In this document: positions 24,913 to 52,280 of the stretch, in pieces | How positions within the stretch are numbered: the first letter of the stretch is position 1 | How the letters are laid out: each line of letters opens with the position of its first letter | Assembly: GCA_907165135.1 (NCBI GenBank) | Contig: OU015570.1 | Location: 2,687,929 to 2,751,928, forward strand | DNA length: 64,000 bases | Direction of reading: 5' to 3' | Source: Oikopleura dioica | Taxonomy: Eukaryota; Animalia; Chordata | Made by a program: the position numbers and the translations under genes | Notes under the pieces: model-generated | Seen by the model: only the letters and a program-made list of their open reading frames with translations | The model's database searches: none | Told to the model about the DNA's origin: nothing

Positions 24913-26708
24913 AACTAGGTATAACTAACCTTAGGTATAACTAGGGACTATCACGGGAGCGCGAGGGCCCAATTTTCGCTTTCCCAACTACCCGAAATAG
25001 CCATTCATTTTTCTTGATTTTTCCGACAATACCGATCAGATCTGGCAAATGCGGCGGTGAGGATGACGTGTCCTTGGATTTAACCAATGAGAGCCAGTCC
25101 TCGCTCGCTCGATCTGAGAGGGCTTCAGATCCAGATTTGCGGCCGCCGCAGCTACCAAATCTGATCGGTATATGTTTTCTTACCTGCTGATTTCAAATAT
25201 GATTGAAAAATTGGCAAAAAAATATTGAATATTATGAATAATATCGAATTTATCTTTCAAAGATCGAAAAAGTATAGAGCTCGTCTTGCCTCGTCATTCT
25301 TATTTCGATATGTTCTCTATGAGACCCTTCTCTTTAATCTCTCAAAAAATAAATTTACTTGGTTCTACCAGTCGGCCACAATCATCAGATAAGTAAGCAA
25401 AAGTGACGGCGCGCTAGTGCTTTACACGCTGCGCGGGGAGCCCGAAAAGCATTAGCGCGCGCCATAATCTCAGTGGGTGCTTGTTTTGACCCAGTACACG
25501 GAATCAGATGCAAACAATACCGGGTGATTAACACAAAAAAGTTCCCGGAAGTCCTAAGCTTCATGTTTGCAAAGAAATTTTCGAAAAATAATAAGCAAGT
25601 GACCCAGAAAACTCGGGTGAAAAATCGGTCAGCTTTAAGAGTAGTCTTAAGTTTGTCTTCCGCAGCATTTTCCGATCAAAAAGATTTTGGTATCATCAGA
25701 ATCAGCTGAAAAATCCATACTTATAAGGAAATTTTTATGAAAATCGAAGGGCAGTCGTTTTCCCGTGAAAGTCCCTAGGCATAACGCACAAAAAATCGAC
25801 TTTTTATCTAAAAGTCGTAGGAAGCTGATTTTCACGTATCATATAGATTTTTGTGCTCTGATAACATTTTAAATAAAAAAATTTCAAAATTTTCAAATTA
25901 AGTACTTTTGAAGTACCCCAAAGTTGCCAAAAAATTGATTTTTCGAGCAATCCAAGCTACGGGGTTCTAAGTATGCTCATTCGAAAGAGCGGAAAAAACT
26001 GAGTCAGAATCATCAATAAAAAGGGGTTCCTGGGTGGGTTCTCTGGATTCTAGGGATGAAAAACCCAAAAAATGATGACTCATCATTGATTCCGAAAACC
26101 GGTATTTCTGAAATATACATTGATTCACGCTAGACATATATACTTTTTACCAACTCTGGGCTCGACGTAAAAAATGTCGAGGATTTCGATCACGTGTTTC
26201 AAATTTTGTAGTAAATTCATCTTCGGGTCATTTGAGGTTATCAAAGTTCCAAACTAAAAATTTTAAACAGATTACCTAAAACCATAAAAAAGCTAAAAAT
26301 CTGGATAATATAAATTTTAACATCAGATGGAGGTGGGTTGGGTTGTAGACGTGACTGAGAATGATCAACTCAGATTTTTCAGCCTTTGTCAAGCCCCTTA
26401 AATTCAAAAATCAAGGGGCGGAGCTGAGACGGATGGGTACTTCCGGTCTAGAATTCTTGAATTTCCGGCGAAAATCAATATTCAAGAAGAAAAATCTGGG
26501 TCAAAACTTGAAATATTTTTTTCTCTGAAAATGAATTCTGACTAATTCGAGTATGCAGAATCCATTTTTGACAGTCAAATTTCGTCTATATAAGCCAAAA
26601 GAAGACCCAATTTTTTGCAAGGAAACCCTAGGTATGCCGGCGAAAGTCGAACTCGGAGTCCTTTTTCTTCTGCGAATTCTCTGACTGCTTTGAAGTTCAA
26701 GTTCAAAG

Positions 26709-26752
26709 TTTGAACTCTCCTCCATTATCCATGAGGATCTCTCTCGGTAAGT
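26709..26752 (-). pseudogene. pol: continuation of the target element's integrase across the giant insertion (also at 31986-32029)
   Basis: Joining across the TAAGT TSD gives ...WLRNPHLPREILMDNGGEFK. Confidence 0.9.
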
Positions 26753-26821
26753 TGTAAGGCCGAAAAGTCCTTACTAGTAGTGTAGCAAAACGGTGGTGAC
26801 CATTTCTGACCATTTCCGACC

Positions 26822-26944
26822 ACTTCCGGTCACTTCCGGTTCACTTCCGGTTCACTTACAAGTGTTTCCAATCACTTCCGGTCACTTCCGGTTCATTTCC
26901 GGTTCACTTCCGGTCACTTCCGGTCACTTCCGGTTCACTTCCGG
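26822..26944. promoter_or_regulatory. array of nine ACTTCCGG (ETS-type CCGGAAGT) sites in U3
   Basis: Counted directly; repeated in the other two LTR copies (several sites mutated in the 3' LTR). Confidence 0.6.
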
Positions 26945-27038
26945 TTGACCTCCAGTTGACCTCCAGCTCACTACTGAAAGGATAGATCCATTATAAAACA
27001 CCACAAGAGTAAGCCAAAGTGAGTGCTCACTGAGAACA

Positions 27039-27123
27039 GCGCCACCTGGCGTGGGCTCTCGCGCCCCACCTAGTGTCGGCTCTCGAGTGCCACCTAGTGG
27101 TGGCTCTTTGGCGCCACCTATGG
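27039..27123. promoter_or_regulatory. cluster of CTCF-consensus-like motifs in U3
   Basis: GTGCCACCTAGTGG (reverse complement CCACTAGGTGGCAC) plus variants GCGCCACCTGG and GCGCCACCTATGG. Confidence 0.55.
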
Positions 27124-28123
27124 TGAGCACAAAAGCCTTGGTTACTCTATATTTGGCCATAGTTACACCTTATGAGTCAATGACTCACTCCTGACGCATG
27201 GATTACATCATCTGAAGATACTCCTCGAAGCTTCTAGCGACAATGAATCACAATGACGAACTATGACATCATCTTGGAGAATCTACACGAATATTCCATT
27301 GCTGTTCTAAGAAGCCTCAAGATTATTCTATCCCTGTTCTAAGAAGCTTCTTGAACATTCTTATTTTCCCTTTCTGACTATATAAGCGCTGTGTCTTTCT
27401 GAATAAAATCACTTCTTAACTGAAACCCAAAAAACAACTTTACTCTCTTTTATCCAGCAACAACAACAGCAACAACAACAGCAACAACAACAGCAGCAGC
27501 AACAACACCAGCAGCAGCAACGACAACGGCCGCTGAGCAATCAGTGGTAACAAGTACTCTCACGGGTACTTGCGAACTCAGGTCTACGCTTTAGTAGAGC
27601 TGTTTAGAGTCTTGAATCTTGTAGTCGTAGTGTATTGTCTATTTAGTCGTACACGCATAGACCCAAGTATAAAAAACCAGAGAAGGAATTTGACTAGCGT
27701 CAGGAGACCAGTAAAAGGGTACTTTGTGCCCCGTCATTGGTGACTGAAGTTATCGATTCCACGAGAATAGATCAGACACGGTAGCTAACACAATACTCGC
27801 GTAGTCGCCATTCTGGAGTGGCTACGTCAAGGTCTGCGCTGATCTATATCGGACTCCGTAAGAATCTTTTTTGATTCGGTTCTCGGCGTAAGGGTTTTTT
27901 ACCTAGCGGGGAATAAAAAGATCCGTCTACGGCATATAGACGAAAAACTACCCGAACGCAGCCTAGCGTATAGGCGATTTCCCGTGGCAACGTCCACATT
28001 CCCCAGTAATACCCGGATAGGGTTTAGATAACGCATTAGCATTTGCATTAGCAGTAGCATTAACAAGTAGTCGTTCATTTTTGAGGAAGAAACAACCAAA
28101 TCTTCATACTTAAAAAGGTAAGC

Positions 28124-29925
28124 ATGACACTTGATAGTACTTTAACCAAGGAATCCGGCTTTGATGATTTCTTTTCTCAAATCGGAGACTTCGATTCAAA
28201 TGATTTCTCAATTATATATCTTCACGCAAAGAAACCGATAAGAGCTTCGGTAGTAAAGGAAGTAACTTTAGACAGTAATCTCCTTTACAGAAGGTCGGCT
28301 AAAGAGGAAGAGGCCTTAGCAGCCATAAACAGAATAGGTGAAGTTTTTCCAGCAGTGATTCTTGAAGTTGCCAATAGTAAAGAGAAAACCATTAAATACC
28401 ATGTTGTCCCAGTTGGTAGCATTTTACCAAAAGGTAGTAAAACCAATATTTACTACTGGACTCCATTGTGCAACAAGATCACTAAGAATCGAGATAGTTT
28501 ACGAGAGGTTATTAATACAGTAAGAGCGGATGAAAGAATTCAATGTCGGAACTTTCCAAGCTCCGTTAATAAAAGGATTAATGATGTGATACAATCGAAA
28601 ACAAATATGTTCCTTGTCGAAGATAGGAAAATTCGAAAAGAACTTCCCAAAGCAGTAAATGATGAGGATACTTTTTCGATTGCAGAGACAGTTGATTCTG
28701 ATTGCTCTCAGTCGCAGATGAATGAACATGAGGAAGCTTCGAACATAAAACTTGAGCAAGAGTATCACGACGATCAATTTTCCGATGTTAGCTCGGTTAA
28801 GGATCAGCATTTTCAGCAAGAGTCTGGTTTTAATCAGGACCATCAGAGTCAAGATAATACACCGAATGATTCGAAAGAACATTCCCAGGAAGAGAAAACA
28901 TCTGATCCAAAACAACCTCGAGTTGAAGTTCACCACATAAATACGCTCTCTTCAAACCATAAAATAAAACTCTCAATGTTCAAGGAAACTGATAATTGCG
29001 AAGCATGGGTAAGAAAATGTGAATTTATCATCAACTTGGGAGGGGTAAAAAATGCATTCAAGAAGATAAGTCACATGTGTAGCCACCTCCCAGAGCCCAT
29101 TCAAGAAACAGTTATCCTTGAGCTTGCTGAACTTGAGGAAAACCAGATCACCATCCAAGAATTCATCAAAACTCTGAACAAAGCTTGCAGAAAGAATGAA
29201 TTCCAGTATGAAACCCTCTTTACCAAACTCAAATACAATGAGGAAGAGCATTTGAATTTGAGAAACTTCTACTACCGAGTAAAACAGCTGGTAAAGCAGA
29301 CCATCGGTGAAGGATGTGATAAAATGGTTGAGAAAGTGGCTTTTAAAGAATTTTTGAACAAATTGCCGCAGAAAATCCAAAAATCGGAATTCCTCCTTGA
29401 ATACCGAAAGGAAAAAACAAATCTCATGGACATTGTTGATAAATGCGAAGAACTGTATGAAAAATTTCGAAAAGGTGACTATACTGAAGTCAATGGTATG
29501 TCACACCACAAAAGGGGCTCGAAAAAGCCAAGTCAAAAGTTTTCGAGAGGTTTCAAAAACCATCGAAACCTTCCCTGAATAATTTCGAAAAGAAACTCAC
29601 CTGCTACTTTTGTGGCAAACAAGGTCATCGAAAATCTGAGTGCCGAGCACTCAAGGCAGAGAAAAGGAAATACAGTCCTACCCAGACATAGAAAAAGACA
29701 GTAGAGTGTCATAACTGCGGTAAAATCGGTCATTACGCTTCGGAATGCCGATCCAAGCGTACTTTTAACCCAAAATACAAAAAACCAGGATTTAAGAAAC
29801 CTGAATACTCAAAAACCAACAAAAGCATGGAGTGCTACAATTGTGGCAAGAAAGGTCACAGAGCATCTCAATGCTGGGCGAAAAAACGAGACAGTAGAGG
29901 GTCTTCTAAACCCACTAGAAAATTA
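28124..29925 (+). pseudogene. gag: gag, duplicated copy, frameshifted at ~29560
   Basis: Identical to 33979-35784 except one A missing in the run before the first CCHC. Confidence 0.9.
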
Positions 29926-30572
29926 TGAATCCAGTGATAACCATCAAACTCAAACAGTATGACCCTAACGGGCACATACGAATCCTTACCCTTCCATTTT
30001 GCCTTCTTGATTCGGGTGCATCTTCTTCATATATAACGAGAGATATACTGCCTCCTGAAATGAATATCAAAAAGCTTGAAAATCCACAATATGTGAGCAA
30101 TGCATTTGGAAAGAGAATTTCATCTATTGAAGAAATTCTTATAGCTAACCTTGCAATCGAAGAAGACGATATTGAAATTTCAAAAGTCAAGTTTCATCTT
30201 GTAACAAAAAAGATGAAATACAAAGCTATTATCGGAATGAACATCATTTCCCACTTTAAAGTTGACTTCCGAAATGATGAAATAAAATTGCTCAATAATC
30301 TCTTGAGTAACGGAAGCAAAAACGAGGTATCAACTATCTTGTTTGAATCAGAAGAAAACTCGGTTGAGTATGATGTGTTATCCAACGAATATATAAGTGT
30401 TTCACCTCACAGTAATAGAACACTGTATGTTCGACTTTTTGGCAAAAAATGGCCATCTGACAAAATGACATTTTTTCCCGATGAAAGATTCACCGAAAAT
30501 GATATTTTTGTCCATGAATACAAAATTTTTTCAAACTTCCGAATAGTTGAGATACAAAACAGATCTCACTCT
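29925..30572 (+). pseudogene. pol: truncated pol (protease only), ends at the duplication junction
   Basis: LLDSGASSSYI; identity to 35781-36428 stops at 30572. Confidence 0.92.
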
Positions 30573-32029: not shown

Positions 32030-33591
32030 TGTAAGGCCGAAAAGTCCTTACTAGTAGTGTAGCAAAACGGTGGTGACCATTTCTGACCATTTCCGACCAC
32101 TTCCGGTCACTTCCGGTTCACTTCCGGTTCACTTACAAGTGTTTCCAATCACTTCCGGTCACTTCCGGTTCATTTCCGGTTCACTTCCGGTCACTTCCGG
32201 TCACTTCCGGTTCACTTCCGGTTGACCTCCAGTTGACCTCCAGCTCACTACTGAAAGGATAGATCCATTATAAAACACCACAAGAGTAAGCCAAAGTGAG
32301 TGCTAGGGTTCCGCACGATCGGAGGACTCAAATTTCAAAAACCAAATTAAACTATAACAAATTTTTAAGTTTTGAATGGGATAGAGGTTTTCGACTATGG
32401 CGAAGAAAATGACGATACTTATATTCTGATAACTCTATAAATTCGCCGATTTATCTCGGTTTTTCCGGTATATTTCTGTCGCCCATGTTCAGTCGCCCTC
32501 CCATTGAAAAGAACACCAAAAAATAGTAGTTTTTGTTTTTAAATGAAATTATAACTCAGCGAACTTTTTGTGGGCTGATCAATTAAAGTTTTCATAAGCA
32601 TTAACATTTTCATTTCCCGCGCGCTGATTGGTCGAATTTCTGACTGTGTTGTTCAGATGGAAGAATCTTCAGTCTAGAAAAAGTGCCTTGCGCAGCTGAC
32701 CAATCAGAGCGCATATGCTAATTAAACTTTGTGTTTTTAAATAGCTTTAAAATGAAAGAAGAAATGGCTTTTAGGAGAAACTAGGATCAGAAATGGATTC
32801 TACTAGTCACTTTTAGTAGAATTTAAAAATTTTGGTAAATTTAAAGTCTCTGTCCCAATCGTGCGGAACCCTAGTGAGTGCTCACTGAGAACAGCGCCAC
32901 CTGGCGTGGGCTCTCGCGCCCCACCTAGTGTCGGCTCTCGAGTGCCACCTAGTGGTGGCTCTTTGGCGCCACCTATGGTGAGCACAAAAGCCTTGGTTAC
33001 TCTATATTTGGCCATAGTTACACCTTATGAGTCAATGACTCACTCCTGACGCATGGATTACATCATCTGAAGATACTCCTCGAAGCTTCTAGCGACAATG
33101 AATCACAATGACGAACTATGACATCATCTTGGAGAATCTACACGAATATTCCATTGCTGTTCTAAGAAGCCTCAAGATTATTCTATCCCTGTTCTAAGAA
33201 GCTTCTTGAACATTCTTATTTTCCCTTTCTGACTATATAAGCGCTGTGTCTTTCTGAATAAAATCACTTCTTAACTGAAACCCAAAAAACAACTTTACTC
33301 TCTTTTATCCAGCAACAACAACAGCAACAACAACAGCAACAACAACAGCAGCAGCAACAACACCAGCAGCAGCAACGACAACGGCCGCTGAGCAATCAGT
33401 GGTAACAAGTACTCTCACGGGTACTTGCGAACTCAGGTCTACGCTTTAGTAGAGCTGTTTAGAGTCTTGAATCTTGTAGTCGTAGTGTATTGTCTATTTA
33501 GTCGTACACGCATAGACCCAAGTATAAAAAACCAGAGAAGGAATTTGACTAGCGTCAGGAGACCAGTAAAAGGGTACTTTGTGCCCCGTCA
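32030..33591 (+). repeat. 5' LTR carrying a hAT MITE
   Basis: 984 bp LTR + 570 bp insertion + 8 bp TSD; PBS at 33592-33604. Confidence 0.97.
32304..32873. mobile_element. hAT-like MITE (570 bp)
   Basis: 16-bp perfect TIR TAGGGTTCCGCACGAT; 8-bp TSD GTGAGTGC; absent from the two other LTR copies. Confidence 0.95.
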
Positions 33592-33978: not shown

Positions 33979-35784
33979 ATGACACTTGATAGTACTTTAA
34001 CCAAGGAATCCGGCTTTGATGATTTCTTTTCTCAAATCGGAGACTTCGATTCAAATGATTTCTCAATTATATATCTTCACGCAAAGAAACCGATAAGAGC
34101 TTCGGTAGTAAAGGAAGTAACTTTAGACAGTAATCTCCTTTACAGAAGGTCGGCTAAAGAGGAAGAGGCCTTAGCAGCCATAAACAGAATAGGTGAAGTT
34201 TTTCCAGCAGTGATTCTTGAAGTTGCCAATAGTAAAGAGAAAACCATTAAATACCATGTTGTCCCAGTTGGTAGCATTTTACCAAAAGGTAGTAAAACCA
34301 ATATTTACTACTGGACTCCATTGTGCAACAAGATCACTAAGAATCGAGATAGTTTACGAGAGGTTATTAATACAGTAAGAGCGGATGAAAGAATTCAATG
34401 TCGGAACTTTCCAAGCTCCGTTAATAAAAGGATTAATGATGTGATACAATCGAAAACAAATATGTTCCTTGTCGAAGATAGGAAAATTCGAAAAGAACTT
34501 CCCAAAGCAGTAAATGATGAGGATACTTTTTCGATTGCAGAGACAGTTGATTCTGATTGCTCTCAGTCGCAGATGAATGAACATGAGGAAGCTTCGAACA
34601 TAAAACTTGAGCAAGAGTATCACGACGATCAATTTTCCGATGTTAGCTCGGTTAAGGATCAGCATTTTCAGCAAGAGTCTGGTTTTAATCAGGACCATCA
34701 GAGTCAAGATAATACACCGAATGATTCGAAAGAACATTCCCAGGAAGAGAAAACATCTGATCCAAAACAACCTCGAGTTGAAGTTCACCACATAAATACG
34801 CTCTCTTCAAACCATAAAATAAAACTCTCAATGTTCAAGGAAACTGATAATTGCGAAGCATGGGTAAGAAAATGTGAATTTATCATCAACTTGGGAGGGG
34901 TAAAAAATGCATTCAAGAAGATAAGTCACATGTGTAGCCACCTCCCAGAGCCCATTCAAGAAACAGTTATCCTTGAGCTTGCTGAACTTGAGGAAAACCA
35001 GATCACCATCCAAGAATTCATCAAAACTCTGAACAAAGCTTGCAGAAAGAATGAATTCCAGTATGAAACCCTCTTTACCAAACTCAAATACAATGAGGAA
35101 GAGCATTTGAATTTGAGAAACTTCTACTACCGAGTAAAACAGCTGGTAAAGCAGACCATCGGTGAAGGATGTGATAAAATGGTTGAGAAAGTGGCTTTTA
35201 AAGAATTTTTGAACAAATTGCCGCAGAAAATCCAAAAATCGGAATTCCTCCTTGAATACCGAAAGGAAAAAACAAATCTCATGGACATTGTTGATAAATG
35301 CGAAGAACTGTATGAAAAATTTCGAAAAGGTGACTATACTGAAGTCAATGGTATGTCACACCACAAAAGGGGCTCGAAAAAGCCAAGTCAAAAGTTTTCG
35401 AGAGGTTTCAAAAAACCATCGAAACCTTCCCTGAATAATTTCGAAAAGAAACTCACCTGCTACTTTTGTGGCAAACAAGGTCATCGAAAATCTGAGTGCC
35501 GAGCACTCAAGGCAGAGAAAAGGAAATACAGTCCTACCCAGACATAGAAAAAGACAGTAGAGTGTCATAACTGCGGTAAAATCGGTCATTACGCTTCGGA
35601 ATGCCGATCCAAGCGTACTTTTAACCCAAAATACAAAAAACCAGGATTTAAGAAACCTGAATACTCAAAAACCAACAAAAGCATGGAGTGCTACAATTGT
35701 GGCAAGAAAGGTCACAGAGCATCTCAATGCTGGGCGAAAAAACGAGACAGTAGAGGGTCTTCTAAACCCACTAGAAAATTATGA
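33979..35784 (+). CDS. gag: Gag with three CCHC zinc knuckles; in-frame TAG at 35545-35547 after the first
   Basis: CYFCGKQGHRKSEC, then in the same frame CHNCGKIGHYASEC and CYNCGKKGHRASQC up to TGA 35782-35784. Confidence 0.9.
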
Positions 35785-38700
35785 ATCCAGTGATAACCAT
35801 CAAACTCAAACAGTATGACCCTAACGGGCACATACGAATCCTTACCCTTCCATTTTGCCTTCTTGATTCGGGTGCATCTTCTTCATATATAACGAGAGAT
35901 ATACTGCCTCCTGAAATGAATATCAAAAAGCTTGAAAATCCACAATATGTGAGCAATGCATTTGGAAAGAGAATTTCATCTATTGAAGAAATTCTTATAG
36001 CTAACCTTGCAATCGAAGAAGACGATATTGAAATTTCAAAAGTCAAGTTTCATCTTGTTACAAAAAAGATGAAATACAAAGCTATTATCGGAATGAACAT
36101 CATTTCCCACTTTAAAGTTGACTTCCGAAATGATGAAATAAAATTGCTCAATAATCTCTTGAGTAACGGAAGCAAAAACGAGGTATCAACTATCTTGTTT
36201 GAATCAGAAGAAAACTCGGTTGAGTATGATGTGTTATCCAACGAATATATAAGTGTTTCACCTCACAGTAATAGAAAACTGTATGTTCGACTTTTTGGCA
36301 AAAAATGGCCATCTGACAAAATGACATTTTTTCCCGATGAAAGATTCACCGAAAATGATATTTTTGTCCATGAATACAAAATTTTTTCAAACTTCCGAAT
36401 AGTTGAGATACAAAACAGATCTCACTCTGTTGTTGTTATCGACAAGAATGTTAAAGTCGGTTGCATTCGGGAAAAATTCTTCCATCACAATCTTAATTTC
36501 CTCCTCACCGAAAAAGAGCTTGAACCTTATGAAAAGGTGACTCATCAAAAGGAGTTGAGGCTCTGGCGGGAGCGGAGGAATCTCTTGGTTAAACATTACC
36601 CTCTGGATAAAGAAATTGAGGCACTCGCCGCACAGGCACCAAAGCAATATCAAAAAGAGCTTAGATTTATTCTTTTTAAGCACGAATGGACATTTTCAAG
36701 GGGAGTCAGTGATGCTGGCTTATCCCAAAATTACTTGACTGAATTGAAATTAAAAGACTCAGATGCTCCAGTTTATACAAGACCGTATAAATTGGATATA
36801 AGCATGCAAGAAAAAGTCGAGAAAAAGCTTGACGAGCTTAAGACTTCTGGAATTATTGAACCATGCTGTTCTGCATGGAACAGCCCTGTCATATTCGTCA
36901 AAAAGAAAGATGACAGCATAAGAGTTGTGAATAACTACTCAGCCTGTGGCGACAAGAGTGTCAATAGCAGACTGATCATTCCGAAATACCCTTCTCTTCC
37001 AATTCGATCAGTTCTTGCGAAAGTCAGCTCAGCGATCACGACATTGAAGGAAAGATTTCCTCACGACAAGATCTACTTTATCGGTCTCGACGTTCGAAAT
37101 GCTTTTTATAGCATTGCAATTAGAGAAAAGTCGAGGGATATCACTAGCTTCCTCTTTGGAGGAGAGCAATTCCGATATCAGAGAATGAGCCAGGGACTCT
37201 CATCGTCCCCCGCAACCTTCCAGTATTTCATCAATAAAGTCATGGCTGGAACGGAAGGAATGAGCAAGGACTACTTTCTCATCAATTATCTCGACGATTT
37301 CTTTGTTATCGTTCCTGAGCGCTTTCACAACAAATGTGTCGACAATTTACTACAACGAATGTCTGACCAAAACCTCGTAGTAGCGCTTCAAAAAAGCGAA
37401 TTTTACAAAACCGAGTGTAAATTCCTCGGATTTCTAATAACTGAGTCAGGAATCAAGGCTGACCAGATGAAGGTTCAAGCGCTTCTTGAATTGGACTTTC
37501 CCAAAAATTTAAAGGAAGCACAGAGATTTCAAGGGGCACTCAACTACTACAGTAGGTTGATTCCAAACATGTCAGCATGTCTAGCGCCGCTTGCCTCTGA
37601 AATTGGCAAAGGAAAAGCATACACGCTGAACGATGAAATAATAAACGGAATCAAACAGCTGAGAGATGAGATCCGGAAAGGTGTATCCATTGATCACTTG
37701 AAATATCCAACAGGCGAAGACGGCTCGTACCTGTTTATCGCTGCCGATACATCTTTGACGAGAACAGGATCAATCATCGGTAATCTTCGAAAAAACGAAG
37801 ATACTATTTCGAATATAACAATCGCTGGATATGCAAGCAAAGCTCTTGACAAACAAGAAGTCCTATTGTCATCAAGAGCTAGAGAATTAATAGGCCTTGG
37901 ACACGCACTCAAGGCATTCGAAGAACTCATTCCTAAAGATAGGAAATTTCTACTTCTCTGCGACCACAAAAATCTCGAAGGAGCTAAGCATTCCACTAAG
38001 TTAAAAACAAGTGGTAATAGCAGAGTAAGACTTGCATTTTCGAGATTGCTCGAATATCCTTTAGCGACTGTCCACTACCTTCCTGGAGAGCATCCCGTTA
38101 TTGGAGTTGCTGATGCTCTCTCAAGATTGCCAGTGTTGGAAATTGGAAAGATAAACAGTAAAATATTTGAGCCTTCAAATATTACAAATGAAAAAATGAC
38201 ACTGAATACGACACAAATATTTAGTCAACAAAAACCAATCGTCGACATTAAAATGATCATCGAGCATCAAAAACGATCAGACAAATTTTCGAAAATTCGG
38301 AAAAAATTGGTCGACAAACAGTGCGTCAAAATTGAGAATATTACTTACCAGTTACATAACGATATACTGTATCGAACAGTAAAAAATGGTAAGCTCCTCG
38401 CAATTGTTCCAAAAACGCTTTCAAAGGAGCTAATTGGCTTTTACCATGTAGCCACAGCTCATTCCGGAAAAGCACCTATTGAGGAAAAACTCAAAGATGA
38501 GCCTTTATGGCTAGAGAACAAAACGGAAGCAATCAGTCAAGCCATTGATGGTTGTATTTTCTGTTGCCTTATTCAACCGTCAAGGTTCAAGTCAAAGTCA
38601 GATATTGTGGCTCTTAAGCCAAGTCAAGCCTGTTACCAAAAAATATTTGTTGATTTAATCGAAATCTCAGTTTCAGGAAAACTTCTGCATTATCTATCAT

Positions 38701-39644
38701 TTTTGGACGACTTTTCGTTAATGTTATCAGTAGAACGAGTAAATTCAAAGGCAAAGCAGGATGTCGTTCCAAAAATAATTTTACTTTTAACAGAATTCGG
38801 TTGTCAAGGAAAAGCACTTATGGTTTCGGATAATGGCGGAGAATTCGTTAGCGATTGTCTCGCAGAAGCTGTTGAGTATTTACAAGTTGATCGATCATTT
38901 ATTGCACCATACAACTCAAGAGCAAATAGAGTTGAGCGGGCTCATAGAGACCTCAGATCATTTATAAGAACAGCAAATCTTAAATTTAAAGATGCTGATT
39001 TTATCGTTAAGATGAGTGCGAACTTATACAATCACCGCCAAAAAGAAGGTCTGAAGGGACTGACCCCAGCTCAAGTGGCAAGAAATATTGACCCACCAGT
39101 CCATTATGGGTCATTGAAACTCTTTGAAAATACAGGAAATTTCAAAGATATTCATGAGTACATGAAGCTTTTAGAAGAATTTCATGTTGAACTTGCCAGA
39201 CACAAGCGAGAAAAATATCTAGTTAAAGAAAGACGAATCAATGAACTCAAGAAAAATGATATTTGTGTTATCCGAAATCCAAACGACAAATTAGTTGGTC
39301 ATCGGAAGGACAATCTTGGCCCATACAGAGTTCTAGAAAAACGAGGCGACTCTGCTTACTATCTTGAACACATTCTCCTCGGGTCGAGAATCCTAAGAAA
39401 TAGACGGCTTATCATAAAGTTAAACTTGAATGAAAAAGAAGTTGAAATGCTTGAATCGAAGAAAAATCTTATGTTCAACAGTAACAATGAGATTTTGACC
39501 CAAAAAGAGAATGGAAAAATCGCCCGGTCACCTCTTGACCTCGAAAAATTTAAACAGAAACTTAAGTCAGAACGAGAAGAAGACATCACCGAAAAAGAAA
39601 AACCAAAATACTTCTTGAGAAGCCGCAATAAACAGAAAAAATGA
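35781..39644 (+). CDS. pol: Pol (protease, RT, RNase H, integrase), intact 1287 aa
   Basis: DSGA; WNSPV, LDVRNAF, QGLSSSP, YLDD; ADTS, CDHK, ADALSR; H-x3-H...CIFC; DLIE, DNGGEF, ERAH, GPYRV. Confidence 0.97.
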   Translation: MNPVITIKLKQYDPNGHIRILTLPFCLLDSGASSSYITRDILPPEMNIKKLENPQYVSNAFGKRISSIEEILIANLAIEEDDIEISKVKFHLVTKKMKYKAIIGMNIISHFKVDFRNDEIKLLNNLLSNGSKNEVSTILFESEENSVEYDVLSNEYISVSPHSNRKLYVRLFGKKWPSDKMTFFPDERFTENDIFVHEYKIFSNFRIVEIQNRSHSVVVIDKNVKVGCIREKFFHHNLNFLLTEKELEPYEKVTHQKELRLWRERRNLLVKHYPLDKEIEALAAQAPKQYQKELRFILFKHEWTFSRGVSDAGLSQNYLTELKLKDSDAPVYTRPYKLDISMQEKVEKKLDELKTSGIIEPCCSAWNSPVIFVKKKDDSIRVVNNYSACGDKSVNSRLIIPKYPSLPIRSVLAKVSSAITTLKERFPHDKIYFIGLDVRNAFYSIAIREKSRDITSFLFGGEQFRYQRMSQGLSSSPATFQYFINKVMAGTEGMSKDYFLINYLDDFFVIVPERFHNKCVDNLLQRMSDQNLVVALQKSEFYKTECKFLGFLITESGIKADQMKVQALLELDFPKNLKEAQRFQGALNYYSRLIPNMSACLAPLASEIGKGKAYTLNDEIINGIKQLRDEIRKGVSIDHLKYPTGEDGSYLFIAADTSLTRTGSIIGNLRKNEDTISNITIAGYASKALDKQEVLLSSRARELIGLGHALKAFEELIPKDRKFLLLCDHKNLEGAKHSTKLKTSGNSRVRLAFSRLLEYPLATVHYLPGEHPVIGVADALSRLPVLEIGKINSKIFEPSNITNEKMTLNTTQIFSQQKPIVDIKMIIEHQKRSDKFSKIRKKLVDKQCVKIENITYQLHNDILYRTVKNGKLLAIVPKTLSKELIGFYHVATAHSGKAPIEEKLKDEPLWLENKTEAISQAIDGCIFCCLIQPSRFKSKSDIVALKPSQACYQKIFVDLIEISVSGKLLHYLSFLDDFSLMLSVERVNSKAKQDVVPKIILLLTEFGCQGKALMVSDNGGEFVSDCLAEAVEYLQVDRSFIAPYNSRANRVERAHRDLRSFIRTANLKFKDADFIVKMSANLYNHRQKEGLKGLTPAQVARNIDPPVHYGSLKLFENTGNFKDIHEYMKLLEEFHVELARHKREKYLVKERRINELKKNDICVIRNPNDKLVGHRKDNLGPYRVLEKRGDSAYYLEHILLGSRILRNRRLIIKLNLNEKEVEMLESKKNLMFNSNNEILTQKENGKIARSPLDLEKFKQKLKSEREEDITEKEKPKYFLRSRNKQKK

Positions 39645-41259
39645 AGATATACGCAGTTATCATTTTAACCGCCATAAGTACGATATTCGACGGCGAAATA
39701 TTGAGCAAACACCGATTTTCCATTAAAAATGGAAAGAAAAACTTGATCAAGATGATAAGCTACCCTCAGAAACTTGAGTGGGAAAAGTCAAATTGCTCAG
39801 ATGAATTTCAACGACAGATCATGGATTACGAGAAAAATACGGAAGATAACATGATGAGTTGGTTGTATAACAACTCCATTCCGGTGCACTACACTGGAGA
39901 ACTCAGCCGCGAGAAAAAATCACAAAATATTATTGTTGAAATGAATGATAAAATCTGTCATCAAAATTGTTCGAGTCTTTTCAATAAAAATGTTTGCAAA
40001 CAAAAATATTCGTACAGTGTTGAATTCAATGGAAAGGCTCAGGGAATATTTATAAATATTCAAAAAGCAAAGGATACTGAAATTAAACTTACTGTTTTTA
40101 CTGACGTCAAACGCAAAGCTTCGCTTGTAGCTGAATACGAGTTCGATCTTCAATACCATCTGTATCTTGGTTTTAAACGAATAAAAAAGTTTGATATTGA
40201 GTTTGAAACGAAGAGAATAGATGTCATGAGCGAAGGCCAAGCTCAGGACATTCCTGTTTGCTTCAAAATATTGAGCATTACACCGCTCTACAATTCTGTC
40301 AGCGCTAACTTAGCGCAAGCAGAACTAAAAAACTCAATTAAAGCTTTCACGGATTATAACTCAGCTTCAAGAAATAAGACTGTAGAAATGTTGAGCTCAA
40401 CGTGCGCACATAATTCGGGCTCCATGGACACATTCTTGCAGAAGCAACATAGTATCTTTTTGCATCAATTTATAGAGAATCACAGTAATCTCAGTCTCGC
40501 GTCAAAATCATTTAAAGATGTTATCATAAAAAAGCTCAACACATTGTGTTCGGATAATAAAGACGAAAAAATCGCATGCGAAAAATTTAATAAAAAAATG
40601 AATTTCGAGATCAAAGATTTAAGGGTATACAAGACGATAAATGACATCAGATCCGAATATTATATACAGTATTCAGAACCGAAAATTGAGAGAATAGACA
40701 CAATTATGAAATTATACCCTAAAATTATACCTTTTCGTCATCATCAAGGACTATTCTTATTTCAGAAAGTTAGGCTCCCCAGTATAATCGCAAATAAAGA
40801 TGAGAATATTATTGAGTTCGAAAAATGTGAAAAATTGGAAAATAGGCACACCATGGTAAACATGGCACCACAGAAATAAAATGTTTAACCTGGTTGATAA
40901 AAAATGCAGAAGAAACGAGAAATGACTGTTATACAACTGTCATTAAAAATCAGCCATGTATTGAGTACGATAGAATCGGAGCACTCTCAAAAATATGTTT
41001 TCAAGGATTTGAAAATGATAAAAAATTGATCGAGAAAAATATGAGCTCATCTTCAGTAGAAAATAAAATTACCACAAAATATTTACTGATAAGAATACTC
41101 TGTATATTTGCAACACTCTTTGGTATTTTTATTATTGTCAAAATGAGAATTCGATTCAAAAAGGTCTTCACAAGAATATTTTACGTGAAAAAACGTAGCG
41201 AAATCAACAAAAAATCATCTAAAAAGGATCTTTGGGAGACTATCTCAATCAAAATATAA
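39641..41259 (+). CDS. env: Env-like glycoprotein with one frameshift near 40855
   Basis: Signal peptide, N-glycosylation sequons, Cys pattern shared with the other env ORFs; frame 2 (KHGTTEIKC...) leads to TM LLIRILCIFATLFGIFIIV. Confidence 0.8.
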
Positions 41260-41306
41260 TTTTCCGATGACTTATTTATAACATAGATACTGAATTTCAC
41301 AATCCG

Positions 41307-41711
41307 ATGAATCAACAATTAGAATATGAACTACCGTTTAATCTTAATTTAAATTGCAATTCAAAAGCGAACTCCTTTAACGATGATCACGCGGACAAAA
41401 GTCAAAACTTTAGAGCGTTTATAAAAATCGTTAGCAATCCAGCATATCTGACAGCCTTTTTGGCTGCCGCGTTTTTGTTAGGCAGTATTTTTACATACTG
41501 TATTTTCCGAAATAAAATTCGACGAGTAAAAAAGAACTACAAGAAAGAAATCAATTTCATTCATGAAAACAACAGGCAAGAGCGTGTAAATGCGAACAAC
41601 ACATATCATCCCTCTCCAATAATTATGCCAATCGCATTTCCAGCATCGCCAGAAAATGATCGTCGATTTTTGCCTACAGTGCCTTATTCCGACACTATTT
41701 CGGAAATATAA
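41307..41711 (+). CDS. 134-aa single-pass membrane protein, unknown
   Basis: Intact ORF just after env; TM AYLTAFLAAAFLLGSIFTYCIF followed by a basic stop-transfer segment. Confidence 0.6.
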   Translation: MNQQLEYELPFNLNLNCNSKANSFNDDHADKSQNFRAFIKIVSNPAYLTAFLAAAFLLGSIFTYCIFRNKIRRVKKNYKKEINFIHENNRQERVNANNTYHPSPIIMPIAFPASPENDRRFLPTVPYSDTISEI

Positions 41712-44762: not shown

Positions 44763-45505
44763 CCAATAAAATTAAGTTTAATAATCGATTAATTTATTTA
44801 AACTACATTATATGTACCTATATTATTATTATGATACTATATTATTAAAAGATTATTATAAAATAACCGCCTTTTAAAGAAAAAATAAGTTTTCAATTCA
44901 TTAATCCTGTCAAAAACCGTTTATTTTAATTAACCTTCATTCTTGATTTTATTTCCGAGTGAGGGCGCTTATTTCACGCCGCGCTCTGATTGGTGCGCGC
45001 TCGTGAAAGCTCTGATCTGCGGGGAGTGTGGTAGGTGTTGTACGTCTCAAAAATACACGCCTCGCGCTAAATCTCGATCTGATGGGGCTTCAGATCGAGA
45101 TTTTTCACCGCCGCAAAAGTGAGAGCGCAACGGTACTAATTGAAAACTATACCCAATAAACTAAGAGCTTTGCGATTTTTTCTTCATTAATCAATACAAA
45201 ATTGAGAGTTTGCGACTGTATTAGAAATATACAGTAAGAAAGATGGTCCTAAAAGTCAAGTTTTTCTAACAACTTGAAAAAGAAAAGAAAGAGAAGAAAA
45301 CGATCGGCAAAAGTCGAAGCGCGGCGAAAAAGAACTGTCTTTTATGATTTCAAAATACTTTCAAAGAGTTTCAAACTAGTTATTTTGAAATTTTCCTGAG
45401 AGCACCAAACTTGCCGAAGATATCGTAGAGTTCTTCAGAGTTCTGGCTAAAAATATTGATTAGTTTTATGGAAAATTTATTAGAATTTTAAGTAAAATTA
45501 CCAGC

Positions 45506-46889
45506 TCAAAGGGGCAAATGTTCGAAGTCCTGAGGAGGAAGACAGACAGCTCGGCAGTAGGGACATTCGAAAAATGCGGATGCTCATTGAGCCACAAGAG
45601 GCAGCAATGGCGGCTTTTTCAGATTTTTTAAAAAAAGAAAGAAAGAAATTTTTAATAATTTTGAAAATTTTTAAAATCTGTGCCAGATGAAGTGGCCGTT
45701 CTGGCACTCCACACTGCAGGCGGGACAGACGCCCCGCTCAGCGCCTTGCGGCAACACATTCGCACAGATGTCGCACTGAATTTTTAAAAGAAATAACACT
45801 GTAACAAGCAATTACAGTTAATATCATATGTGGTCATTCTTCGGGGTAAAGAAAACTGTTTCTCCCTAAACCTACTCTTAACCCGACTTACATCGAATGC
45901 TACATCTTGTCGCTATTCGAGCTGCTGCAGCGGCTGGAGCTCCACCGGATCAGCAGGATCATCTGGGTTGAGATCGGCGACTTCTTGATCGACGGCTTCA
46001 ATCACGGGCGCAGGGAAGTCGAAGATAGGCTCAGCCTTTGACGAGTTATTTTTTGAAAGTGAGAAAAATTATAAAATTTTCTTGTTATTTTTAAACTCGT
46101 TCCTGGAGTTCATCCGCTTGGACTATCTCCAGAGGCGGTGGCAGATCCTGAAACACAGGCGCACCATGAACTGGCGCACCTTGAGCCTGAATCGGAGCTG
46201 GAGCTTGAGCTGGAGCTAGAGCTTGAGCTGGAGCGGGAGCATGAAGAATTGCAGGTGGAGGACCCGGCATCGCAGGGACGCCTTGAGCTTGTTGCGGAGG
46301 TGAGCGTCGAGCGCGCTGAGCAGCTGGCCCTTGGTGCTCATCGGCCACGGAAGCCTCGCGTCGGCGTCGTCTTCCTCGTCGACTTGGTCCTGGCGCATTT
46401 CGGTCCTCGTCGGAAGAACTCGCAAGCTCCTCGCGTCGAATAACTCTTCGACGGGCCCTGATCGGCGGCAATATGCGGAATTGCCACTGAAATTTAATTT
46501 TTGATAACCTGTTTTGCAGGATAATTTATGCCATTTTAAATGGATTGAATAAAATAAGCAAAATATAACAATTTTTAATAATAAACTACTCGCTAAAAGT
46601 TGAAAATGTCAAAATGAAATAGCGGTAATTATTTTATGCTTAAACCTTGCGACAAGATAGACGATTCGAAAAAGGACTAGTGAGTTTTATTGAGCTAGTT
46701 TTATGAAAATCTTTGAAAATATTCTTCTGAAAATATTCAAGAACTTACTTCGTACCGCCACCCGCAGTGCCGGCAGTGATGAAGGTAGGAGTAAGGACTG
46801 AGAGATGTACGTGGCCCTTGGCCGTCTTCTCTACCCGGACAGTCAAGATTCCGGCACCGCGGGCGGCGGAAGTCAGCGACGTTGAACAT
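45506..46889 (-). pseudogene. 5-exon gene: N-terminal Cys/His Zn motif, disordered linker, C-terminal C3HC4 RING (about 291 aa)
   Basis: Exons 46889-46749, 46486-46097, 46035-45892, 45775-45684 and 45613-45506 join in frame; CDIC...CQNGHFICRHC...W...CPYC; one TAG and one 1-nt loss; last intron GC-AG. Confidence 0.75.
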
Positions 46890-48865: not shown

Positions 48866-49492
48866 ATGAACAAAGAAAATCATAAAACTGACTGCAGTAA
48901 AACGCTGCCAGTAAACATTGAAGCCGCAATAAATTTATTTTGTTGCAACTGCTTTTCTATGAAAATTGATTCTCATTATTATGCGAATCTGACGGATCAA
49001 ACAAGGCAATTTGAAGTCCTTTTGATTGAAATCAACGAAAAGTTTCAATTGAAAAACAGCGAAAGGCTGAAAGAAATGAAAGAATTTATTGATGAAAACG
49101 TTATTAAAAATTCTAATCCTCACCTTTCGACCAGAGAATGGTACTTACTCAATTACGAAATAAACGCCGGAAAATTGGCATTTCTTCCAACTTATCGTAA
49201 AATGTTTAATTTGATTCTGTTAGCAGAGGCTGTTCTGAAATCATCAGAAACACGTATTTCTTCACAAGCTCGAAGAAGACTCAGAGCAAAAATTCAAAAA
49301 ATCACACATCGAAGCATTTTAAAATATTATGGTCGTTATATAGAAGCGAATGGATATTCAAGAGGGCTCGAAAATTTCAAAATGACGATTTATGAGCAAA
49401 AGAATGCCCCTAAAAATAGTTCTTTGGAACTATCATTTTTTCTGTGTCTGACTTTTGGAGTTGGATTTCTTCTATTGAATTTGCTAAAATAA
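48866..49492 (+). CDS. 208-aa tail-anchored protein, possible Bcl-2-fold
   Basis: Intact ORF; C-terminal hydrophobic segment 188-207; EINAGKLAF and YIEANGY loosely recall BH1/BH2. Confidence 0.55.
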   Translation: MNKENHKTDCSKTLPVNIEAAINLFCCNCFSMKIDSHYYANLTDQTRQFEVLLIEINEKFQLKNSERLKEMKEFIDENVIKNSNPHLSTREWYLLNYEINAGKLAFLPTYRKMFNLILLAEAVLKSSETRISSQARRRLRAKIQKITHRSILKYYGRYIEANGYSRGLENFKMTIYEQKNAPKNSSLELSFFLCLTFGVGFLLLNLLK

Positions 49493-49493
49493 G

Positions 49494-49710
49494 TCAGTAG
49501 AGGGCGCTTTTGCTATTTAAGGATTCAGTTCCTAGCATAAATTGACAAGTGAAAATTGGTAGTGAGATGCTGCTCTCACTGGGGAGCGCCACCTGGTATC
49601 GGCTCTCGCGCCCCACCTAGTGTCGGCTCTCGAGCGCCACCTAGTGGACACTCAGGAATGGCTCTCTAGTGACATCTAGTGGTGGCTCTTTGGCGCCACC
49701 TATGGTGAGT
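49494..49710. promoter_or_regulatory. internal copy of the LTR CTCF-like array plus one oppositely oriented site
   Basis: 49575-49710 is homologous to U3 (51520-51670); GCGCCACCTAGTGG present; TCAGTAGAGGGCGC at 49494-49507. Confidence 0.6.
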
Positions 49711-49975
49711 CGAAAATTTTTTTAAGAACGCGAATTTAAATTCGGCGCAATAATGACTGTTGATTGCTCATTGTTCTTTCGGAAAATCGAGAAAATTACA
49801 TGTACATTCTGGAATAAATGACGAATAAGAGTCATTTAATGAGTAATAGCTCGAATCTTCCAGGAATCAACATTTCTACTGTCACGAAGGTTCTGGAAGG
49901 CTTCAGAAATTCTATATGACTCACCAGCCGAGTATATAAGGCCGACCTGAAGGCAGATCAGCATCAGACATAAAA

Positions 49976-51118
49976 ATGAACAACCAAAAAACCAATTTTT
50001 CCACTTTTTCCAACACCAACGACCAACAACCACCAGAGACTCTCTCCAACGACCAACAACCACCAGAGATTTTCTCCGGCAACCAACAACCACCAGAAGA
50101 CGTCTCCGACTCTAACGATGATCTCTACATCGATGAAGAGGAAGACACCTCGCTCCTCGACTACAACCCACCATCCGTCGGCAGCGACAATGTTTTCCTC
50201 CCAGACGAAGATGTCGACGAGGCCATGTCAACATCCGGCCCTCTAGACCCACCAAACAGTCCGGTCGTCGAGGAACCAACCAGCCCAGAAGCTGAACCGA
50301 CCGTTTCGGTTGACGTTCTCCCGAAACAAGAGGAATCCTCCGGCCAAAAAGCCGAAAAGGCTGTCAAGAAAGAAGATCATGACCGTCCCGGTCCAAGCGT
50401 CCGTCCTTGCTGCGGATCGAGTCGCATGTTAGTGCTTCGACAAACTGAAGGCAACCAAAACCGACAAGTTCGATTCCTGCGCGATGGACGACGCTGGTCC
50501 CAACAAATTCGATACAATCCAAATCAACCACAGCAGTGGCGACATGATGAAGGCCAATCCAACATGTGGCACAACCGAGTTGTCGTCCACGACTCGTTCA
50601 ACGAGCGCCGTAATCAGTGGCTCCGACTTGAGAAACTTCAACCACACCATCGACTTCCGAAAGTTGGAGAGCCCAGAGATATCCCAGAATTTGTAAAACG
50701 ATTGCCTGAGGACATGAAGCACACGCTCATTGCTGCCATCCACAAGGCCGACATGCGAGAGATTCGACGACTACTGATCGTGATCGGTAGCCGGAAGATG
50801 GCACTTACCAACAACTTGTGCAAGCGACTCTCCAACCTGATGCTTCTTGGCATCTACAAAGGTTTCCAACCACTCCGCGTGAACCAGATGGTTCCCATCG
50901 AGATCTTCCCGAGATTCTCGCGCAGCTCTTTGGCCTGCATCAACCTTGTGGATCCAGCCAGGCTGATGATCTACCTTGGCTACCCCAGCCTTGGGTACAA
51001 GCTGAACAACAATGCCTGCGGCGAAACCTTGTGGCGACGAATCCAACCAAAGCACCGAGTCGCCGTATACCGCGACTCATTTGCCTTTGGTGCCGCTTTG
51101 TGCAAGCGACTGCAATAG
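49976..51118 (+). CDS. 380-aa orphan protein (acidic/repeat N-terminus, globular-looking C-terminus)
   Basis: Intact ORF; TATATAA at 49933-49939; NDQQPPE repeats; ends ~100 nt before the PPT. Confidence 0.75.
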   Translation: MNNQKTNFSTFSNTNDQQPPETLSNDQQPPEIFSGNQQPPEDVSDSNDDLYIDEEEDTSLLDYNPPSVGSDNVFLPDEDVDEAMSTSGPLDPPNSPVVEEPTSPEAEPTVSVDVLPKQEESSGQKAEKAVKKEDHDRPGPSVRPCCGSSRMLVLRQTEGNQNRQVRFLRDGRRWSQQIRYNPNQPQQWRHDEGQSNMWHNRVVVHDSFNERRNQWLRLEKLQPHHRLPKVGEPRDIPEFVKRLPEDMKHTLIAAIHKADMREIRRLLIVIGSRKMALTNNLCKRLSNLMLLGIYKGFQPLRVNQMVPIEIFPRFSRSSLACINLVDPARLMIYLGYPSLGYKLNNNACGETLWRRIQPKHRVAVYRDSFAFGAALCKRLQ

Positions 51119-51237: not shown

Positions 51238-52280
51238 TGTAAGGCCGAAAAGTCCTTACTAGTAGTGTAGCAAAACGGTGGTGACCATTTCTGACCATTT
51301 CCGACCACTTCCGGTCACTTCCGCTTCACCTCCGGTTCACTTACAAGTGTTTCCAATCACTTCCGGTCACTTCCAGTTCATTTCCAGTTCACTTCCGGTC
51401 ATTTCCGGTCACTTCCGGTTCACTTCCGGTTGACCTCCAGTTGACCTCCAGCTCACTACTGAAAGGATAGATCCATTATAAAACACCACAAGAGTAAGCC
51501 AAAGTGAGTGCTCACTGAGAACAGCGCCACCTGGCGTGGGCTCTCGCGCCCCACCTAGTGTCGGCTCTCGAGCGGCACCTAGTGGTAGCTCTCGGGCGCC
51601 ACCTAGTGGTCGCTCAGGATCAGCTCTCTAGTGCCCTCTAGTGGTGGCTCTTTGGCGCCACCTATGGTGAGCACAAAAGCCTTGGTTACTCTATACTTGG
51701 CCATAGTTACACCTTATGAGTCAATGACTCACTCCTGACGCATGGATTACATCATCTGAAGATACTCCTCGAAGCTTCTAGCGACAATGAATCACAATGA
51801 CGAACTATGACATCATCTTGGAGAATCTACACGAATATTCCATTGCTGTTCTAAGAAGCCTCAAGATTATTCTATTCCTGTTCTAAGAAGCTTCTTGAAC
51901 ATTCTTATTTTCCCTTTCTGACTATATAAGCGCTGTGTCTTTCTGAATAAAATCACTTCTTAACTGAAACCCAAAAAACAACTTTACTCTCTTTTATCCA
52001 GCAACAACAACAGCAACAACAACAGCAACAACAACAGCAGCAGCAACAACACCAGCAGCAGCAACGACAACGGCCGCTGAGCAATCAGTGGTAACAAGTA
52101 CTCTCACGGGTACTTGCGAACTCAGGTCTACGCTTTAGTAGAGCTGTTTATAGTCTTGAATCTTGTAGTCGTAGTGTATTGTCTATTTAGTCGTACACGC
52201 ATAGACCCAAGTATAAAAAACCAGAGCAGGAATTTGACTAGCGTCAGGAGACCAGTAAAAGGGTACTTTGTGCCCCGTCA
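51238..52280 (+). repeat. 3' LTR (1043 bp)
   Basis: PPT immediately upstream; ~9 substitutions and 59 extra bp (extra CTCF-like units) relative to the 5' LTR; TAAGT follows. Confidence 0.97.

What the first reader, a model, noticed from the sequence alone, without database searches (positions are those of the whole stretch)
45506..46889. Intron-containing Zn-finger + RING E3-ligase-like gene inside the retroelement, antisense to pol
Seen: five exons join in frame (introns 262, 61, 116 and 70 nt, the last GC-AG) and give CRNLDC...HHCRHC, a long disordered linker and a C3HC4 RING. Inference: introns in antisense orientation would survive reverse transcription of the sense genome, so this could be stable cargo. 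Known: viral RING ligases (herpes ICP0, baculovirus IE2/PE38/IAP) counter host defence. This copy has one nonsense codon and one 1-nt loss in a T run.
Basis: partly seen in the sequence, partly recalled or inferred. Interest (0 to 1): 0.8.

Follow-up and report, generated by a model that had tools for sequence, protein, structure and literature searches.

The report
Spliced RING gene inside tunicate retrotransposon
A 20-kb retrovirus-like jumping gene, likely of the plankton tunicate Oikopleura, holds a backwards-facing, now broken gene with a predicted five-exon layout that likely encoded a ubiquitin-tagging RING protein and is likely old cargo of the element, although only this one copy was found.

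Summary
A five-exon gene model lies on the minus strand at 46889-45506 (introns 262, 61, 116 nt GT-AG; 70 nt GC-AG). A GC segmentation blind to splice sites recovers all five exons. The gene lies between env and the 3' LTR of one 20.25-kb gypsy element (LTRs 1.1% apart, 5-bp target duplication) whose closest named Pol is from Oikopleura dioica. The C-terminus has all eight RING-HC ligands, but scores weakly on a RING profile (11 bits; 0 of 3000 shuffles reach it) and has an extra CxxC. The nonsense codon is real in three DNA runs; the T-run frameshift is untested; env is broken too. 'Stable cargo' is not shown: the gene is single-copy, no homologue was found, and the RNA test was uninformative. 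Indirect support: the three sense ORFs of the 10-kb 3' region have no introns, one has a homologue probably on a diverged sister element, and no close host parent appeared. Best reading: decayed element-borne accessory E3 (0.55); rival: hitch-hiking host DNA (0.3). Extra ORFs, antisense ORFs and ubiquitin-related domains are known in LTR elements; my searches found no four-intron antisense RING gene.

The parts
45506..46889 (-). Five-exon gene model, about 291 codons: N-terminal Cys4 motif, Arg/Pro/acidic linker, C-terminal RING-HC-like domain; broken in this copy
46749..46889 (-). Exon 1 (ATG; C-x4-C...C-x2-C, possible zinc ribbon)
   Evidence: no hits; pLDDT 57 model
46097..46486 (-). Exon 2, low-complexity linker (Arg-rich stretch, Pro/Ala/Gln repeats)
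   Evidence: only a sub-cutoff low-complexity Pfam match
45892..46035 (-). Exon 3, acidic linker, with in-frame TAG at 45915-45913
   Evidence: identical in contigs of X2, X3, X4
45684..45775 (-). Exon 4: RING ligands 1-4 plus an extra CxxC; followed by a GC donor
45506..45613 (-). Exon 5: RING ligands 5-8, Trp, CPxCR, stop; frame break at the T5 run 45573-45569
   Evidence: T run not covered by any laid contig
45477..45482 (-). AATAAA, candidate poly(A) signal of the antisense gene
32030..33591 (+). 5' LTR (TG..CA) with a 578-nt insertion; preceded by TAAGT, followed by a PBS-like TGG site
33979..35547 (+). gag with CCHC knuckle
35781..39644 (+). pol (PR-RT-RNase H-IN), one open frame
39641..41259 (+). 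env-like gene (N-terminal and C-terminal hydrophobic stretches), broken by a frame break near 40850-40880 that is also in short-read contigs
41307..41711 (+). Intronless 134-aa ORF with one hydrophobic segment
42672..45289 (.). High-copy repeats nested in the element: a 78%-complementary inverted pair (43286-43414 / 44633-44761) and a 56-bp tandem array (43671-43992)
48866..49492 (+). Intronless 208-aa ORF (ORF-Y), no family
49586..49940 (+). Internal promoter-like block: 124-nt copy of an LTR segment (14% diverged), heat-shock-like element, TGACTCA, TATATAA
   Evidence: motif names recalled
49976..51118 (+). Intronless 380-aa ORF (ORF-X); 40% identical over 177 aa to an O. dioica protein
51238..52280 (+). 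3' LTR (TG..CA), preceded by a polypurine tract, followed by TAAGT
25348..30572 (+). Tandem duplicate of flank + 5' LTR (26753-27736) + gag + start of pol
   Evidence: gag at about twice the depth in X2 and X3, not in low-depth X4

Best explanation
This is a broken, backwards-facing five-exon gene model inside a 20-kb env-bearing gypsy element, likely an Oikopleura Tor element, and it is likely a decayed accessory gene of the element's lineage that would have encoded a RING-type ubiquitin ligase. Shown: the exon-intron anatomy, the position between env and the 3' LTR of one integration, the nonsense codon, single copy number, and no laid paralogue at 85% or more. Inferred: an ancestor took up a spliced gene in reverse orientation. 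The sense genomic RNA does not present its splice sites, so the four introns are copied along, while sense ORFs of the region have none. The gene would be transcribed from its own minus-strand promoter in the provirus and end at the AATAAA. Predicted function: the RING binds an E2, the N-terminal Cys4 motif or the linker binds a host protein, and the Arg-rich stretch may send it to the nucleus, so that a host silencing or defence factor is ubiquitylated. This copy has lost both env and RING integrity.
For: One integration: LTRs differ at 11 of 984 sites and TAAGT flanks both ends. Orientation asymmetry: 3 of 3 sense ORFs of 134 aa or more in the 3' region are intronless, while the antisense gene has four introns; O. 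dioica median exon length is about 150-160 nt (PMC8008620, passage). The 3' region looks like family property at least in part: the ORF-X homologue P0081 and the sister Pol P0004 (67% identical) both have a longest contig of 12,283 nt, probably the same contig (inferred from length only). Other sister Pols lie on contigs of 10.4-12.6 kb, more than the 7.3 kb of gag-pol-env here. No close parent gene: depth over 46004-46955 in X2 and X3 is the locus's own contig alone at 85% likeness, and exon 1 and exon 4 searches found nothing. No long inverted-repeat pair brackets the gene: best matches were 20 nt or less, E 0.08 or more. RING: eight ligands with consensus spacing plus Ile228, Trp263, Pro274, Arg277 (consensus recalled). 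It scores 11.1 bits on a profile of 59 viral RINGs, reached by 0 of 3000 shuffles and 2 of 3000 shuffles that keep Cys/His in place. Precedent: ubiquitin-related domains in Burro elements (PMC6431247).
Against: No second copy and no sister carrying it: depth 33.7 and 42.1 in X2 and X3 equals env (35.4, 43.8). X2 has 1.3-1.4 times more depth on mid-pol and ORF-X, and X4 1.5-1.8 times more on env and ORF-X, but not on the RING gene. This could mean partial extra copies that lack it, or coverage noise. The TAG is real in X2, X3 and X4, and env is broken too, so selection on the gene cannot be shown. The region holds high-copy repeats, as host DNA would. Exon GC (about 0.6) is far from gag/pol (about 0.38), although ORF-X is also GC-rich. 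The RING score is far below true members (45-64 bits, 15 leave-one-out tests) and no single exon hits a Pfam RING model. The homologue searches used 30-47 aa pieces and are weak, and the read-laying filter leaves records out, so a diverged host parent is not excluded.
Confidence: 0.55

Rival explanations
1. Passenger host DNA: a piece of genomic DNA of several kb, with old repeats and one orphan host RING gene, entered this one element or its immediate ancestor by a single capture or repair event. It has no role for the element and is decaying.
For: Single copy. Nested high-copy repeats at 42672-45289 and 48384-48621, with laid relatives 5-12% diverged (table 8). Host-like exon GC and short AT-rich introns. 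Gene broken. Excess depth on other parts of the element but not on the gene in X2 and X4.
Against: No parent at 85% or more was laid in X2-X4, though a recent capture should leave one (filter caveat). No annotated O. dioica protein shares three 5-mers with exon 1, whereas Pol and ORF-X do find O. dioica proteins. Neighbouring sense ORFs are intronless.
Confidence: 0.3
2. The gene is cargo of a second mobile element (Helitron- or MULE-like) nested in the retrotransposon after it integrated.
For: The element holds nested repeats and a 578-nt insertion in one LTR. DNA transposons capture intron-containing genes (recalled; listing of PMC4021074).
Against: No long inverted repeats bracket the gene and no transposase-sized ORF lies in the 3' region. 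The gene is single-copy. Helitron ends were not tested.
Confidence: 0.1
3. Independent of origin: the Cys/His cluster is not an active E3 RING but another zinc-binding module, for example a three-zinc variant or an inactive RING that acts as an adaptor.
For: Extra ligand-type residues C242, C245, H258, C260, H267, H269, C280. Weak profile score. No Pfam RING hit on single exons.
Against: All eight positions fit the RING-HC spacing. The non-ligand residues also fit better than 2998 of 3000 Cys/His-fixed shuffles. The same C-x-N-G-H spacing occurs in a viral protein that matches Pfam RING models below cutoff (L123).
Confidence: 0.2

Closest known systems
Tor elements of Oikopleura dioica (Henriet et al. 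2015, PMC4402516; parts 1 and 3 of 6 and passages read; supplement not readable)
   Same: gag-pol-env gypsy layout, near-identical LTRs, 4-5-bp TSD, low copy number per individual, internal promoters. Closest named Pol is O. dioica, 43% identical.
   Different: The text read reports no ORFs beyond env ('additional ORF' 0 and 'RING' 0 occurrences). This element has a 10-kb region after env with three sense ORFs and a spliced antisense gene. Subgroup not assigned: no pol-env gap (unlike Tor4b), no N-[LV]-G motif in the first env frame.
Burro/GYPSM1 giant gypsy elements of planarians (PMC6431247, passages)
   Same: Large env-bearing animal gypsy elements with ubiquitination/apoptosis-related domains (AIR1 RING-Zn-finger motif, MATH, BIR, SUMO-like), proposed to tamper with host systems.
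   Different: In the passages read, those domains sit in the polyprotein or an upstream accessory ORF, and no antisense or intron-bearing gene is described. Burro has thousands of copies; this gene has one.
Antisense 3' additional ORFs of plant Tat/Retand, Grande and RIRE2, and fungal Boty (PMC7264820 part 1 of 3; PMC11963269 passages)
   Same: Long pol-to-3'LTR region with antisense genes and tandem arrays; no host parent known.
   Different: There they are present and conserved in most copies, which is not shown here. They encode TRP28/Smc-type domains, not RING. The word 'intron' does not occur in the Retand paper's text.
HTLV-1 HBZ and related spliced antisense genes of deltaretroviruses (PMC10186651, passages)
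   Same: A spliced antisense protein gene that persists in a reverse-transcribed genome.
   Different: Driven from the 3' LTR and encodes a bZIP regulator. Here the gene starts 4.3 kb inside the element, has four short host-type introns and a RING.
Viral RING E3s: herpes ICP0, baculovirus IE2/PE38/IAP (recalled)
   Same: Proposed working principle: a parasite-encoded RING that ubiquitylates host factors.
   Different: No homology found; DNA viruses; no BIR hit on any exon; ICP0, IE2 and PE38 carry the RING near the N-terminus (recalled).

Membership tests
RING-HC (C3HC4) | Eight ligands C-x2-C-x(9-39)-C-x(1-3)-H-x(2-3)-C-x2-C-x(4-48)-C-x2-C (consensus recalled) | tested here: met
   C226, C229, C249, H253, C256, C259, C273, C276 when read with X at both breaks
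RING-HC (C3HC4) | E2-contact residues: Ile/Leu in the first CxxC, Trp in the central helix, Pro and Arg at the last CxxC (recalled) | tested here: met
   Ile228, Trp263, Pro274, Arg277
RING-HC (C3HC4) | Profile score at the level of true members | tested here: inconclusive
   11.1 bits (33.9 without bias correction); 0 of 3000 and 2 of 3000 shuffles reach it; members score 45-64. Two profile members checked are Pfam RINGs. Pfam was run on single exons only, with no RING hit.
RING-HC (C3HC4) | Cross-brace fold and E2-dependent ubiquitin transfer | not testable with these tools
   The domain is split over two exons and a frame break; it was not folded
Ty3/gypsy LTR retrotransposon, Tor type | Two LTRs (TG..CA), TSD, PBS and PPT | tested here: met
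   the priming tRNA was not identified
Ty3/gypsy LTR retrotransposon, Tor type | gag CCHC; PR-RT-RH-IN order; third env-like ORF | tested here: met
   env is assigned by position and hydrophobic ends only, with no Pfam support
Ty3/gypsy LTR retrotransposon, Tor type | Pol groups with a named Tor subgroup | tested here: inconclusive
   Nearest named Pol is O. dioica; the quick tree has no subgroup-labelled references
Conserved additional ORF of an LTR family (stable cargo) | Present in most copies or in sister families | tested here: inconclusive
   Only one copy seen; no homologue; sister contigs could not be read
Conserved additional ORF of an LTR family (stable cargo) | Intact frame, purifying selection, expression | tested here: not met
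   Intact frame not met in this copy (TAG in X2, X3, X4). Selection and expression could not be tested.
ICP0 / IE2 / PE38 / IAP viral E3 families | Sequence homology or BIR domains | tested here: not met
   No such hit on single exons; short queries, weak test

The most novel reading that the evidence does not exclude
A Tor subfamily are complex, retrovirus-like elements of a chordate with a 10-kb accessory region. They inherit a four-intron, antisense RING E3 gene through reverse transcription and use it to destroy a host silencing or defence protein. Reverse orientation would then be a route by which a retroelement keeps a complete intron-bearing gene.
Probability: 0.3. Interest if true: 0.75.

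Novelty: new variant of a known kind. Interest (0 to 1): 0.5.

Why it matters
Retroelements normally lose the introns of genes they carry. A multi-intron antisense gene kept across a family would show that they can carry whole host-type genes, and a RING ligase would give Tor elements a testable counter-defence in a small chordate with a single Piwi (PMC4402516, passage). Even without the RING claim, the 10-kb accessory region with an LTR-like internal promoter and a family-level ORF is not in the Tor text I read. If the gene is only a passenger, the finding is an ordinary decayed capture.

Tried and rejected
No whole genome is held for this window, so host loci and sister insertions could not be searched. 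No RNA holder was listed. RNA run X9 (about 59% read) gave 42 reads on 44100-51230 and 219 on 33600-43650, all partial; those on gag-pol were all under 90% alike. That run is not shown to hold this element, so it says nothing on splicing or expression. The T-run could not be checked: no laid contig covers 45528-45596. Exon 1 against 5.8 billion proteins (84 aa and longer only): none. Exon 4 against 1.84 billion representatives: 0 hits. Exon 2 in metagenome contigs: 1 locus from 596 pattern matches, L001, a GC-rich bacterial contig with no similarity to the window, rejected. Pol and the Pol alignment in viral contigs: none of 14 and none of 34 candidates. PDB sequence search: 3 chance-level hits for exon 4, 0 for exon 1. 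The Atlas did not answer for the exons and gave no usable hit for the ORF-X homologue. The exon 1 model had pLDDT 57 and was not searched further. No paralogue of the exons elsewhere in the window. L122 and L124 were dropped: the motif lies in a stop-ridden frame. Rejected: chance ORF joining; two separate insertions with host DNA between them (matching TSD); the TAG as an assembly error. A 33-nt GC-rich mini-intron ending at the TAG is possible on paper but unlikely. Earlier-finding look-ups by place, sequence and specific words were empty. Paper searches that found no report of such a gene. The library lacks most subscription papers, including the original Tor and Burro papers, and the Tor supplement could not be read.

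Full report
Observation. Exons are about 52-63% GC and introns 16-34%. A GC-only segmentation finds all ten borders within 10 nt without seeing splice sites, so the structure is not chance joining. The intron 2 donor is weak and may be off by a few codons. [quoted passage not shown] An AATAAA follows the stop by 24 nt. Splicing itself was not observed.

Breaks. The frame break at the T5 run is untested, because no laid contig covers 45528-45596. Two indirect hints allow an assembly slip. Runs X1-X3 hold 0.96-0.97 of the 154 words, one variant site removes about 3, and X2 shows no difference in 45848-47000. Also, the duplicate gag has a break that the X2 contig over the matching site lacks. The env break near 40850-40880 is in X2 and X3 contigs without gaps, so this copy is decaying in any case.

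The protein. Read with X at both breaks it has 291 residues: a C-x4-C-x21-C-x2-C motif, a low-complexity linker with an Arg-rich stretch, and a C-terminal cluster. The cluster fits RING-HC spacing (C226, C229, C249, H253, C256, C259, C273, C276) with Ile228, Trp263, Pro274 and Arg277 at E2-contact positions (consensus recalled). I built a profile from 59 non-redundant domains out of 118 of 120 viral loci that showed the full pattern; the two members checked are Pfam RINGs. The domain scores 11.1 bits, reached by 0 of 3000 shuffles and 2 of 3000 shuffles that keep Cys/His fixed, while 15 leave-one-out members score 45-64. It is therefore RING-like beyond chance but divergent, with an extra CxxC in loop 1. 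Single exons give no Pfam RING hit; Pfam was not run on the spliced product. The N-terminal motif has no support from Pfam, PDB, the protein database or folding.

The element. LTRs at 32030-33591 and 51238-52280 begin TG, end CA, differ at 11 of 984 sites and are flanked by TAAGT on both sides, with a PBS-like site and a polypurine tract. Inside are gag (CCHC), an open pol (PR-RT-RH-IN), an env-like gene and a 10-kb 3' region. The closest named Pol is from Oikopleura dioica (43%), and seven unnamed relatives reach 74-84% over the region searched. This fits the Tor elements: env-bearing, low-copy, often hemizygous, with internal promoters (PMC4402516, parts 1 and 3 of 6). The organism is inferred from these names only. 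The 3' region holds three intronless sense ORFs (134, 208, 380 aa), high-copy repeats, a 56-bp array and the antisense gene.

Cargo or passenger. Depth over the gene (33.7 in X2, 42.1 in X3) equals env (35.4, 43.8) and ORF-Y (32.6, 42.9), while the duplicated gag is at 90.9 and 86.8. Gene and element are thus one copy, and no relative at 85% or more was laid on exons 1 and 2, though the tool's filter leaves records out. X2 and X4 show 1.3-1.8 times more depth on parts of pol, env or ORF-X but not on the gene, which counts mildly against. No homologue was found for exon 1, exon 2 or exon 4; these short queries are weak. In favour of old cargo: the sense ORFs have no introns and the antisense gene has four, and no close parent gene is seen, whereas a recent capture should leave one. 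ORF-X has an O. dioica homologue (40% over 177 aa), and its cluster member P0081 shares the contig length 12,283 with the sister Pol P0004, probably one contig. Other sister Pols lie on 10.4-12.6 kb contigs, so long 3' regions are probably a family trait. Whether they hold the RING gene could not be read. No long inverted repeats bracket the gene.

Mechanism. Shown: anatomy, position, orientation, copy number, nonsense codon. Inferred: uptake of a spliced gene in reverse orientation, intron retention because the sense genomic RNA does not present the splice sites, and expression from an own minus-strand promoter. Predicted: an E3 with a C-terminal RING and an N-terminal substrate-binding part acting on a host silencing or defence factor. 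I give the accessory-gene reading 0.55, passenger host DNA 0.3 and a nested DNA element 0.1; independently, 0.2 that the cluster is not an active RING.

Known and new. Antisense ORFs between pol and the 3' LTR are known in plant and fungal gypsy elements (PMC7264820, part 1 of 3; PMC11963269, passages). Enzymatic extra ORFs are known in rotifer elements (PMC5408684, passages). Ubiquitin-related domains, including a RING-Zn-finger motif, are known in planarian Burro (PMC6431247, passages), and spliced antisense genes in deltaretroviruses (PMC10186651, passages). PMC13524379 (passages) has no occurrence of RING or antisense. Unchecked notes of this scan report RING accessory genes in other gypsy elements, two of them from flatworms; they are leads, not support, but they suggest RING cargo recurs. 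My searches found no multi-intron antisense RING gene in an LTR element and no accessory region in Tor. The Tor supplement, which lists the 32 elements, could not be read and may bear on this.

Verdict. A real, broken, single-copy spliced RING-like gene inside a young, unusually long Tor-like element: a new variant of a known kind, interest 0.5. It would rise to about 0.75 if sister elements prove to carry intact copies.

Noticed in passing
window 49586-51118 (+): ORF-X has its own promoter-like block (partial LTR copy, heat-shock-like element, TGACTCA, TATATAA) that mirrors motifs in the LTR. A 40% identical O. dioica protein exists, probably on a sister element. It looks like a family-level accessory gene of unknown function.
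   Followed up: partly
window 25348-30572: Tandem duplication of flank, 5' LTR, gag and the start of pol; gag depth about doubled in X2 and X3. The duplicate gag has a frame break that the single X2 contig over the matching site does not show, which suggests homopolymer slips in this assembly.
   Followed up: partly
window 13159-22909 (-): A second env-bearing gypsy element, frameshifted, with a furin-type site followed by a hydrophobic stretch and a 201-codon frame after env. No LTR pair was found by the repeat search.
   Followed up: no
window 47666-47866 (-): A 67-codon open stretch upstream of the RING gene; 4 reads of run X9 match about 40 nt of it. It may be the remains of another antisense exon. 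No convincing Pfam hit.
   Followed up: partly
window 43671-43992 and 26296-26432: A 56-bp tandem array inside the element whose unit and flank also occur, inverted and 79% identical, in the DNA outside the element.
   Followed up: no
window 32305-32872: An insertion in one copy of the 5' LTR (578 nt by alignment), absent from the otherwise identical duplicate, so later than the duplication.
   Followed up: no
window 41307-41711 and 48866-49492 (+): Two intronless orphan ORFs with hydrophobic segments; a joint in X2 and X4 at 41401-41588 hints at a relative of the first.
   Followed up: partly
window 697-1536, 52774-57317: Further gypsy RT/RNase H, gag and integrase fragments; much of the window is retroelement-derived.
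   Followed up: no
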